A stretch of DNA of 64,000 nucleotides, taken from the NCBI GenBank assembly GCA_040954595.2, contig CM082590.2, positions 5,766,001 to 5,830,000 on the forward strand, read 5' to 3'. Source of the DNA: Balanoglossus misakiensis (lineage: Eukaryota > Animalia > Hemichordata). A program made the position numbers and the translations under genes. The notes under the pieces are model-generated. The model saw nothing but the letters and a program-made list of their open reading frames with translations, searched no databases and was not told the origin of the DNA. This document shows positions 49,401-58,761 of this stretch, piece after piece. Numbering within the stretch: position 1 is the stretch's first letter; each line of letters opens with the position of its first letter.

Positions 49401-50870
49401 CTTCCGCACCGACGTTTTGGGTCTTGTCGCCATACCGACAGAATTGGACGACGCCTCTCTCCGGGTCGGCGTCGGTGGCAACGTCCGTCTACTCGGCTCC
49501 TGGGCGCCGTTCTTTTTCGTCGGTTCCTCGCTGCTGGTCACGTTGCCTAGCAACATGGCTTTCCTCTCAGCAACGAGCGATTTTCGTTTCCCTGACGTTT
49601 TCCTCTGTATGGGCTGATCGTCCGGTTGCTTGGGCGACCATTTTTCCTTCTCGTTGGCCGTTTTGGCTTCCCACGCTGCTTTCTTCTGCTGCACACTGAC
49701 ACCCTTATCCCCGTTCTGTTGTAACAACACACTGGGACCGACACTACGACTACGCACACTCTTCCCGCTGGCCGATCTTCGATACGTCCCTTTTGGGGGC
49801 GACATACTTCCTGTACGCACGTGCTGCTCCTGCTGGGAGCTTTGTGCGCGACTCTCTCGCGAAGAAGTTCTTGTCGCTTGAGTCGGTGACGACGTTTTCC
49901 TCGCACTTCCCGCCGATCGGATCTTTCCCGCCCCCTCGGCGCTATTCCTGGAAGAGTAGGCGTTTCCGGACTTGGAATGATCTCTGGGCGGCGGACTTCC
50001 GGCGTCTTTGCCGCCCAGGGTAATCTCCACCGTTGTCGTGTACTTGGAACATTTCCTGGTGGCTCCGGGAGACGTGGATCCCAACGACTGTCGGCTGCCG
50101 GTTGGCGGCAAACCACTCCGGCTCTGACCGTTCCCGGATCGCGGTCCTCCGTTCTCGCTGCAGGTTTTCTTGGCGGCCATCTTGGAGTGCCTCCGGGCGC
50201 GGTCCTCGGCCGGACTGGCGACTTCGCCGCCCTTCTTGCCGGCCGAGGGACCGACCTGGAACATGGCGCTCTCCGCCGACCTGTTGCCGGTTCTCTGTGC
50301 ACACACCACGCTTCCATTGTGGTTGATCTCCGCATCGTTCGTGTCGCGGCGAATCTCATTATCGGTCGGGCACTTTGGCGCCCTCTGAACCTCGTTGCCA
50401 GTTCCACATTTGACCCTCTCCGCACACTCTGTGTCATCATCATCATCATCATCAGACTCGTCCGCATACTTGAAATTCAATTTCTTCTCCCAATCCGTCT
50501 TCTCCGACCGACAGTCATCATTCCCGTCCTCCTCCTCCTCCTCCTCATACGTCAACTCCCACTCTTTCATTCCGTTCTCCTCGTGGTCACAGCACATCAA
50601 TCTCCACTCCTTCTCCCCAAATTTTTCCATGGTGTACTTGTCGTTCACACAGTCGTCAACAACCTGCGTTTGTTCCTGTCGTCGAAACTGCCTCGCTAGA
50701 TGTTCATTGTAGTCCACGATGGACGAAAACTCTTCCCCGAACAGTTCCTTGGGCGATTTCATACACAGGTTCTCATCCAAAAGTTTATTATTATTCTCTT
50801 GATTGGCTGCAGATCTGCTGCTATCTATATCTACAGAATCATCTAACACTGGTCTGGCTCTTTCTTCCAT
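43257..50870 (-). CDS. DLGAP: DLGAP/SAPAP/GKAP-family protein (vulcan-like); exons 50870-48506, 47189-47098, 45192-45022, 43472-43257
   Basis: GKAP homology domain: DGHFFMKVV..EEERL..LC, GKIRSSIGKGQLL..KKFKQF.GLC, DLAGFWDMVMIQVEDV..MFDEI..LKQNGW, EARKRLMAAK. Splice phases are compatible (1,0,0). The start (ATG at 50870) is uncertain. Confidence 0.88.
43500..43765. repeat. ~61-bp tandem repeat, about 4 copies
   Basis: cacattttatgcaaagtagggttatagtttgtaac repeated. Confidence 0.9.
45022..45192 (-). CDS. DLGAP: DLGAP exon (GKAP domain core)
   Basis: aacctag|...|gtaagt, 171 nt, DLAGFWDM. Confidence 0.92.
46349..46815. mobile_element. Kolobok-like MITE family 1 with internal duplication
   Basis: TTAA-AGGGACAAAG ... 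GTCCCT-TTAA. Confidence 0.8.
47098..47189 (-). CDS. DLGAP: DLGAP exon
   Basis: ttttgacag|...|gtaagt, 92 nt, SGKIRSSIGKGQLL. Confidence 0.92.
47329..47679. mobile_element. Tandem pair of ~171-bp MITEs
   Basis: Each copy runs TAGACTCTCTCACAGCCC ... GGGCTGTGAGAGAGTCTA. Confidence 0.75.
47993..48115. repeat. Imperfect foldback palindrome (MITE-like)
   Basis: agaatctcacacaccaaggatctgggatcatat ... atatgatcccaggtccttgggagtgtgggattct. Confidence 0.7.
48117..48469. mobile_element. Kolobok-like MITE family 1
   Basis: TTAA TSD and long TIRs. Confidence 0.85.
48506..50870 (-). CDS. DLGAP: DLGAP large exon (acidic, then Ser/Thr/Lys-rich disordered region, start of GKAP domain)
   Basis: About 790 open codons; donor g|gtgagt at 48505; candidate acceptors at 50887 and 50871. 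Confidence 0.88.
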
Positions 50871-50989
50871 TCTGAAGTAACTTACATCTGTCAAAACAAC
50901 GAAAGAAAAATAAGGACCATCAGTGTACACGTCCATGCTGTGATGGATAATACATGATGACATACAAGTTGACATTGGCATTGAATAGG

Positions 50990-58200: not shown

Positions 58201-58761
58201 AACCACGCACAACTTCTATCCCACTTGTATGATATGAGAGTAGAACCTCGCCCAAATTGACTAAATGGTAGAGGCCGATTATTCATTTTGGTGAGTTTTT
58301 CCACTCTCGTGTCTACAAGTGGGATGGAAGTTGTGTGTGGTTGAACCTTGATTCACAATACATGTATATCCATGTACATTAACATAACAGTGTCTTGTAT
58401 CAAACATAATTAATGGAAAAAGGGCAGCAAGAGAGAGACTTTGTCCCTTTAATAAACTGAAAATATTCTCCCAAATCAGATACAGGGAGTTGTGTTGATT
58501 GAAGTATACTAACCAATGTGAATAATACAGTGCCCTGGTCCTATCTACTTACCGTACAATGTTCGGATGTTCGAAATTCTCCAGTTGTTTCAACATGGCG
58601 ATCTCCCGGATGGTAGACATAGGCATTCCATCTTCTCCGGTCTGTATACGAACTTTCTTCAATGCAACAATCCGTCCACTCTCTATGTCGCGCGCCTTGT
58701 AGACTGTCCCATAAGCCCCGGTGCCAATCTCTGCCACCTCCTCATACTTCTTCTTGACCAT
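52229..58761 (-). CDS. CDK6: CDK4/6-family cyclin-dependent kinase; five coding exons 58761-58553, 58061-57926, 55337-55170, 53238-53129, 52279-52229; 3' exons not found
   Basis: [72 protein letters not shown]. Internal exon sizes 136/168/110/51 nt match the CDK6 exon structure as I recall it. An alternative in-frame ATG lies at 58788. Confidence 0.93.
52621..53032. repeat. (CATA)n/(CA)n microsatellite
   Basis: Read directly. Confidence 0.95.
53129..53238 (-). CDS. CDK6: CDK4/6 exon ([25 protein letters not shown])
   Basis: ttgacag|...|gtaaaa, 110 nt. Confidence 0.93.
53465..53950. repeat. 122-bp tandem array, 4 copies, each starting TTAACCCT
   Basis: TTAA at 53465, 53587, 53709, 53830. 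Confidence 0.9.
54914..55124. mobile_element. TA-flanked MITE
   Basis: TA-CTGTAAAAC ... GTTTTACAG-TA with repeated cgcgaaa motifs. Confidence 0.7.
55170..55337 (-). CDS. CDK6: CDK4/6 exon ([12 protein letters not shown]-loop)
   Basis: tttttcag|...|gtaggt, 168 nt. Confidence 0.95.
55560..56375. mobile_element. Kolobok-like MITE family 1 whose terminal ~41 bp is tandemly amplified (8 copies)
   Basis: Unit tggaaaaagggcagcg..gactttgtccctttaa ends at 56091, 56131, 56172, 56213, 56254, 56295, 56336, 56375. Confidence 0.85.
56376..57873 (-). mobile_element. piggyBac-like internally deleted element
   Basis: TTAA-CACTTTCACTGCG ... CGCAGCGAAAGTG-TTAA; acidic ORF start [23 protein letters not shown] resembles piggyBac transposase N-termini. 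Confidence 0.7.
57926..58061 (-). CDS. CDK6: CDK4/6 exon ([17 protein letters not shown])
   Basis: ctgtttag|...|gtaggt, 136 nt. Confidence 0.95.
58095..58452. mobile_element. Kolobok-like MITE family 1
   Basis: Same TIRs as the other family-1 copies. Confidence 0.8.
58553..58761 (-). CDS. CDK6: CDK4/6 first coding exon (G-loop, PMSTIRE)
   Basis: Donor cg|gtaagt; probable acceptor at 58900. Confidence 0.95.

What the first reader, a model, noticed from the sequence alone, without database searches (positions are those of the whole stretch)
50860..58761. CDK4/6 gene lacks its last two kinase exons and can splice in frame into DLGAP: chimeric gene or nested locus
Seen: five undamaged CDK4/6 exons end at ...QLHKIF-GA| (phase 2, 52229). 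The expected next exons (xIGLP..WP.. and ..RISA..AL.HPYF) were not found by eye anywhere in the 52 kb downstream. The next exon on that strand, 1.4 kb away across mostly TE sequence, is the DLGAP large exon. Its acceptor at 50871 (ttacttcag|A ATG) gives an in-frame read ...KIFE-MEERAR..., whereas the stronger acceptor at 50887 shifts frame and stops after ~15 codons. No separate DLGAP promoter is evident. Inference: (a) a CDK4/6-DLGAP fusion with a C-lobe-truncated, cyclin-D/INK4-binding pseudo-kinase, (b) a shared promoter with alternative 3' ends, DLGAP and the ROCO gene being nested in a >52-kb CDK intron, or (c) a rearrangement or mis-assembly.
Basis: partly seen in the sequence, partly recalled or inferred. 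Interest (0 to 1): 0.75.

Follow-up and report, generated by a model that had tools for sequence, protein, structure and literature searches.

The report
Tail-less CDK6 piece beside intact DLGAP
In what is likely an acorn-worm genome, the first five coding exons of the cell-cycle kinase gene CDK6 sit without the last two directly upstream of an intact DLGAP gene, likely a partial gene copy left by a DNA rearrangement rather than a working fusion gene, because DLGAP keeps the start codon it has in relatives where it is not fused.

Summary
Observation confirmed. Five intact CDK6 exons (233 aa) end at 52229. The last two exons are absent from all 64 kb (best profile scores 6 bits; spike-in controls 26-71). 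DLGAP follows 1341 bases on as a complete 947-aa frame.

A working fusion is unlikely. Three acorn-worm DLGAP relatives start at the same Met. A relative's spliced transcript has a non-CDK leader whose last 18 nt match the window between the 50887 acceptor and the ATG (P 0.0004) and lacks the AG at 50871. So 50887, out of frame for CDK6, is likely the real acceptor. None of 172 DLGAP-search proteins carries a kinase.

The intervening DNA is repeats, with two truncated elements abutting near 51705; DNA contigs of the sample bridge that junction. One run shows three sequence versions beside exon 5, a hint of an extra CDK6 copy.

Best reading (0.5): a tail-less CDK6 duplicate joined to DLGAP's first intron, giving no useful fusion protein. 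Rivals: a nested locus with an intron over 52 kb (0.25), deletion or mis-join (0.18), functional chimera (0.07). The rest of the genome could not be searched. Interest 0.2.

The parts
58553..58900 (-). CDK6 first coding exon (likely acceptor at 58900, ATG at 58788; residues 1-79)
   Evidence: the acceptor at 58900 is read from the sequence, so a non-coding exon further upstream is inferred
57926..58061 (-). CDK6 coding exon 2
55170..55337 (-). CDK6 coding exon 3 (HRD, DFG)
53129..53238 (-). CDK6 coding exon 4 (GPE, helix F)
52229..52279 (-). CDK6 coding exon 5, the last one present; ends in phase 2 near the end of helix G
51704..52213 (.). Small non-coding repeat element (MITE-like) with an internal 73-bp array of 5.9 copies (51775-52203). 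The end beside exon 5 is a true terminus, since other genomic copies stop at 52213/52214. The far end lacks its last bases.
   Evidence: (table 7)
51351..51709 (.). TTAA-ended repeat element lacking about 200 bases of one end and abutting the element above: candidate rearrangement junction near 51705
   Evidence: bridged by contigs X1 records 7 and 8 and X2 record 16
50990..51355 (.). Abundant palindromic MITE-like element, complete copy
50871..50887 (-). 17-nt conserved leader of the DLGAP first coding exon, opening with ATG-stop. 50887 is the likely true acceptor; 50871 is a weak AG absent in the relative.
48506..50870 (-). DLGAP large coding exon, starting at the ancestral Met
47098..47189 (-). 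DLGAP exon (GKAP domain)
45022..45192 (-). DLGAP exon (GKAP domain)
43256..43472 (-). DLGAP last coding exon and stop; whole frame 947 aa

Best explanation
The window holds the first five coding exons of CDK6 without the last two, likely a recent partial duplicate that a DNA rearrangement among repeats joined to the first intron of an otherwise intact DLGAP gene. Shown: the five exons, the absence of exons 6-7 from the window, the intact DLGAP frame with its ancestral Met, and two truncated repeats abutting near 51705. Inferred: (1) the break lies at that junction or inside the neighbouring 73-bp array; (2) a complete CDK6 exists elsewhere in the genome; (3) any transcript leaving donor 52229 would mostly use the acceptor at 50887, shift frame, stop after 16 codons more than 2 kb upstream of the next exon junction, and likely be removed by nonsense-mediated decay; (4) a protein ending there would lack helices H and I and the buried Arg, so it would likely be unstable and catalytically crippled; (5) DLGAP protein is likely made from its own Met, via a non-coding first exon upstream of the CDK piece or from another intact copy.
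For: Exons 6-7 are absent, with working positive controls. Full-length CDK6 of 307-312 aa exists in three of three acorn worms returned. DLGAP starts at the same Met in Saccoglossus (XP_006821889), Ptychodera (XP_070547166) and an unnamed spliced transcript L001. L001's 79-nt leader has no CDK sequence and has an in-frame stop. Its last 18 nt match window 50887-50871 at 13 of 18 columns (shuffle P 0.0004), while the 18 nt upstream of 50887 do not match (P 0.90). 0 of 172 DLGAP-search proteins hit a CDK profile. In Saccoglossus the two genes are on contigs of different length (407199 and 201550), so neither fusion nor nesting is shared with it. Two repeat elements each lose their adjoining ends near 51705. 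That junction is bridged in the sample's DNA contigs in two versions (0 and 7 differences), so it is not an assembly artefact. In run X2 three contigs, each reaching into exon 5, differ at 52205-52206 (0, 2 and 3 differences; depths 309, 356, 356; bin arithmetic consistent). That is more versions than one diploid locus allows. The other seven introns of the two genes are 0.5-2.6 kb. Such partial-duplication chimeras are common standing variation in Drosophila, 76 in 15 lines (PMC5460883, section read).
Against: No complete CDK6 was seen in this genome, because it could not be searched. The three-version signal comes from one run, from 51-61-base contigs that run into a high-copy repeat. Run X1 shows only one contig there. 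Contig depth is not a copy number: X1 depths (64 at exon 5, 87 at DLGAP) fit two or three copies depending on the assumed single-copy depth, and do not show exon 5 above DLGAP. A mixed or polyploid sample would also give three versions. The junction near 51705 may be only a local deletion of a few hundred bases. The 233 residues show no decay (83-89% to relatives, as close as those are to each other), which fits a working gene as well as a young copy. CDK6 and DLGAP are on contigs of the same length in Ptychodera (23068089) and in four Branchiostoma assemblies, so they could be real neighbours in this family.
Confidence: 0.5

Rival explanations
1. This is the only, working CDK6. Its exons 6-7 lie beyond the window start, so intron 5 exceeds 52 kb and holds DLGAP on the same strand and an ankyrin-ROCO gene on the other. 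DLGAP would then start from a non-coding exon upstream of or among the CDK6 exons (shared or interleaved promoter) or from a repeat-derived promoter.
For: The five exons and their splice sites are undamaged. The genes share a chromosome-length contig in Ptychodera. The CDK ATG exon has its own likely acceptor at 58900, so an upstream non-coding exon that DLGAP could share is plausible. Same-orientation nesting is about as common as opposite in mammals (PMC11694760, passages).
Against: Other introns here are 0.5-2.6 kb. The ROCO gene's ankyrin exons run from at least 3467 and COR lies at 27-28.5 kb, so the intron would have to span two multi-exon genes. There is no unique sequence for a DLGAP promoter between the genes beyond about 90 bases. 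The genes are on different contigs in Saccoglossus. This reading does not explain three versions beside exon 5.
Confidence: 0.25
2. A deletion on the assembled chromosome copy, or an assembly mis-join inside the 73-bp array, removed CDK6 exons 6-7 and the DLGAP first exon from two neighbouring genes, with no extra copy.
For: The whole interval is repeats. No contig was laid across the 98%-identical array 51775-52203, so the link between its two sides rests on the assembly alone. Same-length contigs in Ptychodera allow the genes to be neighbours.
Against: Both sides of the array are matched by contigs of the sample, and the 51705 junction is present in two versions. A deletion predicts at most two versions beside exon 5, and X2 shows three. 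Cdk4/6 was found in most animal phyla surveyed (PMC11555623, passages), so loss from both chromosome copies is unlikely.
Confidence: 0.18
3. A functional chimeric gene: the CDK promoter drives exons 1-5 into the AG at 50871 (or 50937), making a 1181-aa (1203-aa) protein. Its kinase N-lobe would likely still bind cyclin D or Cdkn2 and be carried by DLGAP's GKAP end.
For: The frame is open. The Gly loop, the Cdkn2-contact Arg (R33; role from PMC11555623), the PMSTIRE helix, HRD and DFG are all kept. Duplication chimeras are often expressed in Drosophila, 24 of 76 upregulated (PMC5460883).
Against: 50871 lies 16 nt behind a stronger AG and is not present in the relative's transcript. No fused protein appears among 172 DLGAP-search proteins or 31 CDK hits, though these searches are not exhaustive. 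The truncation removes predicted helices 266-269, 275-284 and 295-299 and Arg292 (P. flava numbering). That Arg is kept in 27 of 29 homologues and forms the buried ion pair described as defining the kinase fold (PMC3415842, passages).
Confidence: 0.07

Closest known systems
Acorn-worm CDK6-like proteins (XP_077996820 Glandiceps, XP_002741831 Saccoglossus, XP_070546974 Ptychodera) and human CDK6 (PDB 1bi7, 1jow)
   Same: 83-89% identity over the 233 residues; CDK6 and CDK4 chains are the best solved matches.
   Different: The last 71-78 or so residues (end of helix G, helices H and I) are not encoded in the window.
Acorn-worm DLGAP/GKAP-family proteins (XP_006821889, XP_070547166 with XP_070547306, unnamed P0039)
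   Same: Same start Met, conserved N-terminal block, GKAP domain PF03359; 35-43% identity over most of the length.
   Different: None of them carries CDK sequence; here the upstream non-coding exon was not found in the window.
Chimeric gene structures formed by tandem duplication in Drosophila yakuba (PMC5460883; abstract and one results section read)
   Same: 5' part of one gene joined at the DNA level to the 3' part of another by a break that ignores gene boundaries.
   Different: There the duplication and expression were measured; here the extra copy is only hinted at and expression is untested.
Host/nested gene pairs (PMC11694760; passages read)
   Same: A long intron could hold a same-strand gene.
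   Different: The host's downstream exons have not been found, and the arrangement is not shared with Saccoglossus.

Membership tests
CDK4/6 | Best similarity to CDK4/6 among kinases | tested here: met
   (no tree built)
CDK4/6 | Arg at the R24/R31 position that contacts Cdkn2 | tested here: met
   KARD at 31-34; feature from PMC11555623
Complete eukaryotic protein kinase | Gly loop, beta-3 Lys, HRD, DFG, APE-like motif | tested here: met
   (motif names recalled)
Complete eukaryotic protein kinase | GHI subdomain with the Arg that pairs with the APE Glu | tested here: not met
   absent from the window; may lie outside it; feature from PMC3415842
DLGAP/GKAP family | GKAP domain PF03359 | tested here: met
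   three of four exons pass the curated cut-off alone, the fourth hits at E 7e-5
DLGAP/GKAP family | Own start codon shared with relatives | tested here: met
Duplication-born chimeric locus | Extra copy of the 5' donor gene, with the parent intact | tested here: inconclusive
   three versions beside exon 5 in X2, one contig in X1; genome not held
Duplication-born chimeric locus | DNA breakpoint between the two gene parts | tested here: inconclusive
   truncated repeats abut near 51705 and are bridged by contigs; size of the lost piece unknown
Functional fusion gene | Spliced chimeric mRNA | not testable with these tools
   needs RNA reads across donor 52229
Functional fusion gene | Fused form conserved in relatives | tested here: not met
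   0 of 172 DLGAP-search proteins; L001 leader has no CDK sequence
Host/nested gene pair | Host exons on both sides of the nested gene | not testable with these tools
   window ends before any exon 6; genome not held

The most novel reading that the evidence does not exclude
A lineage-specific rearrangement has put DLGAP under the CDK6 promoter, and a newly arisen weak acceptor (50871) yields a translated CDK6(1-233)-DLGAP protein that binds cyclin D or Cdkn2 through the kinase N-lobe: a young natural pseudokinase-scaffold fusion, fixed on both chromosome copies.
Probability: 0.07. Interest if true: 0.7.

Novelty: new member of a known kind. Interest (0 to 1): 0.2.

Why it matters
If the best reading holds, this is an ordinary partial gene duplicate. 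It matters mainly for annotation, as a place where gene finders may build a false CDK6-DLGAP model or call CDK6 lost. If nesting holds, it would be an unusual interleaved locus in which a core cell-cycle gene must splice past a same-strand gene. If the chimera is translated, it would be a natural test of whether a kinase N-lobe without helices H and I can act as a cyclin or inhibitor sink. Only the last two would interest a specialist, and both need RNA data.

Tried and rejected
Own genome: not held, so exons 6-7 could not be sought outside the window.

RNA: no RNA holder listed; this says nothing either way. Run X3 is small (28 million letters) and has a repeat-to-exon depth ratio about 40-50 times lower than X1 and X2, so it may be RNA. 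Its contig stops at 50855 with no loose end, and no X3 contig covers exon 5. The kind is unverified and a lack of cover proves nothing, so this was not used. X2 looks like a proximity-ligation library (contigs break at GATC sites), so its depths are uneven.

Copy number from depth: fits two or three copies, not used.

The repeat end at 52213 looked like a breakpoint, but other genomic copies end there too, so it was rejected as one.

The relative's first 61 leader bases have no match in the window above shuffles (best 25 against 24-29).

A first word-based search with DLGAP residues 735-788 gave no hit among 2 candidates.

Gene order from accession numbers: CDK6 and DLGAP are about 200-480 numbers apart in Ptychodera and Branchiostoma. 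The two halves of the split Ptychodera DLGAP model are themselves 140 apart, so distance cannot be read from them.

No CDK sequence in 13 of 13 DLGAP-related loci, 62 kb in all, mostly short and distant (a weak tblastn hit in L002 was not confirmed).

Supplements of two acorn-worm genome papers hold no CDK6 or DLGAP entry (PMC11175523, 8 files; PMC11618098, 2 files); tables not held as text may.

Paper searches for a CDK6-DLGAP fusion or linkage listed nothing relevant (listings only, 6 of 6, 15 of 61 and 10 of 215 shown).

Earlier findings: nothing near this place or like these sequences.

Full report
**Observation.** Five exons on the - strand (58788-58553, 58061-57926, 55337-55170, 53238-53129, 52279-52229) splice into 233 codons plus two bases with no lesion. 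The best solved matches are CDK6 and CDK4. The best database matches are full-length CDK6-like proteins of three acorn worms, 307-312 aa, 83-89% identical over the shared part. The organism is therefore likely an acorn worm.

The C-terminal part is not in the window. tblastn with five homologues finds even the 17-residue exon 5 but nothing beyond it. Profiles of the two missing exons score at most 6.3 and 5.8 bits over 3644 six-frame peptides, against 70-71 and 26-48 bits for three spiked-in acorn-worm peptides scored with profiles that left them out.

**What is lost.** A model of Ptychodera CDK6 (mean pLDDT 82.5) places the cut at about residue 236-237, near the end of helix 228-239. It removes helices 266-269, 275-284 and 295-299 and Arg292, which is kept in 27 of 29 homologues. 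The GHI subdomain and its buried Glu-Arg pair are described as hallmark features of the kinase fold, and mutation of either residue strongly impairs PKA (PMC3415842, passages). The Cdkn2-contact Arg and the catalytic motifs are kept (PMC11555623, passages). That the fragment would be unstable is my inference; the fragment itself was not folded.

**DLGAP is a whole gene with its own start.** Four exons give 947 aa with a GKAP domain. Saccoglossus XP_006821889 (787 aa), Ptychodera XP_070547166 (793 aa) and the unnamed protein P0039 (879 aa) all align from their first residue to the Met at 50870.

P0039 comes from contig L001, in which the window's DLGAP exons are contiguous, so it is a spliced transcript. 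Its 79-nt leader has no CDK sequence and has an in-frame stop. Its last 18 nt match the 17 nt between the window's acceptor at 50887 and the ATG at 13 of 18 columns (P 0.0004 in 20000 shuffles); the 18 nt before 50887 do not match (P 0.90). The relative has no AG where the window has the 50871 acceptor. So 50887, which has the best pyrimidine tract of the seven candidate acceptors listed (16 of 20), is likely the ancestral acceptor, and it is out of frame for CDK6 (stop after 16 codons). This rests on one transcript.

None of the 172 proteins from the DLGAP searches hits a CDK profile; those were the best 150 of 1348 representatives plus cluster members.

**Gene order in relatives.** Going by the contig lengths on record, CDK6 and DLGAP share a chromosome-scale contig in Ptychodera (23068089) and in four Branchiostoma assemblies, but lie on different contigs in Saccoglossus (407199 and 201550). 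Distances could not be read. So old linkage is likely, and nesting or fusion is at least not shared with Saccoglossus.

**The interval.** The 1341 bases between donor and acceptor are three repeat elements plus about 15 and 90 unique bases at the ends. The element beside exon 5 starts at a true terminus, since other genomic copies end at 52213-52214. Its far end lacks its last bases and abuts a TTAA-ended element that lacks about 200 bases of its own end. Two truncated elements face to face are what a deletion or rearrangement leaves, but the size of the event is unknown.

**DNA contigs of the sample** (3 runs, one sample, possibly the source of the assembly, so not independent). X1 covers the DLGAP exon and acceptor in one 1672-base contig with 8 differences. 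The junction near 51705 is bridged by X1 record 7 (exact) and by X1 record 8 and X2 record 16 (7 differences). Beside exon 5, X2 has three short contigs that reach into the exon and differ at 52205-52206 (0, 2 and 3 differences; depths 309, 356, 356; shared part 1281). The leftover depth in that bin implies an unlisted 31-base piece at depth 600, close to the 665 expected if two of the three share it. One diploid locus gives two versions, so this hints at an extra copy of exon 5.

Against leaning on it: it is one run, X1 shows a single contig there, the pieces end in a high-copy repeat, and X1 depths fit two or three copies. The 73-bp array between the two laid stretches was not covered.

**How it most likely works.** A rearrangement, likely a partial duplication breaking in CDK6 intron 5 among repeats, joined exons 1-5 to DLGAP's first intron (0.5). 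Transcripts from the CDK piece would mostly splice to 50887 and likely be degraded; DLGAP would be made from its own Met by another leader or another copy; full CDK6 would come from a parent locus. These steps are inferred. Such structures are common in Drosophila (76 chimeras in 15 lines; PMC5460883, abstract and one section).

Rivals: a single CDK6 with an intron over 52 kb holding DLGAP and an ankyrin-ROCO gene (0.25; same-strand nesting is not rare in mammals, PMC11694760, passages; but all seven other introns here are 0.5-2.6 kb); deletion or mis-join without an extra copy (0.18); a translated chimera through 50871 or 50937 (0.07).

**Novelty and score.** No paper on a CDK6-DLGAP fusion or linkage appeared in three searches (listings only). 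The structure itself is a new instance of a known kind. The exciting reading is the least supported, and the choice among the others needs only a whole-assembly search and RNA junctions. Interest 0.2.

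Noticed in passing
window 50882-50887 (-) and L001 62-67: The DLGAP coding exon opens with ATG directly followed by a stop in both the window and the relative's transcript, 17-18 nt before the main ATG. 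It is a candidate conserved start-stop element of the kind listed in 10.1101/2021.07.26.453809 and PMC13338717 (listing and start of abstract only). Two sequences only.
   Followed up: partly
window 50872-50887 (-): The acceptor at 50887 is followed after two bases by a GTAAGT donor-like word, so a 2-nt microexon is formally possible; by my reading of the sequence it would put CDK exon 5 in frame with the DLGAP exon at 47189. Not run in a script and no evidence of use.
   Followed up: no
window 3467-28500 (+): Ankyrin-ROCO gene: single-repeat ankyrin exons at about 3467, 8602, 9945 and 10692, COR-B in 27064-28500, with duplicated blocks (9919-10552 with 14995-15624, 93%) and a 225-bp array at 11054-14853.
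   Followed up: partly
window 19620-25382 (+): Long overlapping open frames with reverse transcriptase, RNase H-like and Dam methylase matches, the layout I recall for a DIRS-type retrotransposon, inside the ROCO gene span.
   Followed up: no
window 32392-34194 (-): 601-codon frame with a reverse transcriptase match, likely a LINE fragment.
   Followed up: no
P0048 and P0041: The Ptychodera DLGAP gene is split into two public models (793 and 103 aa), one named as a linker histone polyprotein; together they match most of the window's single 947-aa frame.
   Followed up: partly
P0046 and P0049: Macrobrachium proteins with three or four tandem GKAP domains.
   Followed up: no
window 49128-49313: A 75-bp (25-residue) tandem repeat inside the DLGAP coding exon.
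   Followed up: no
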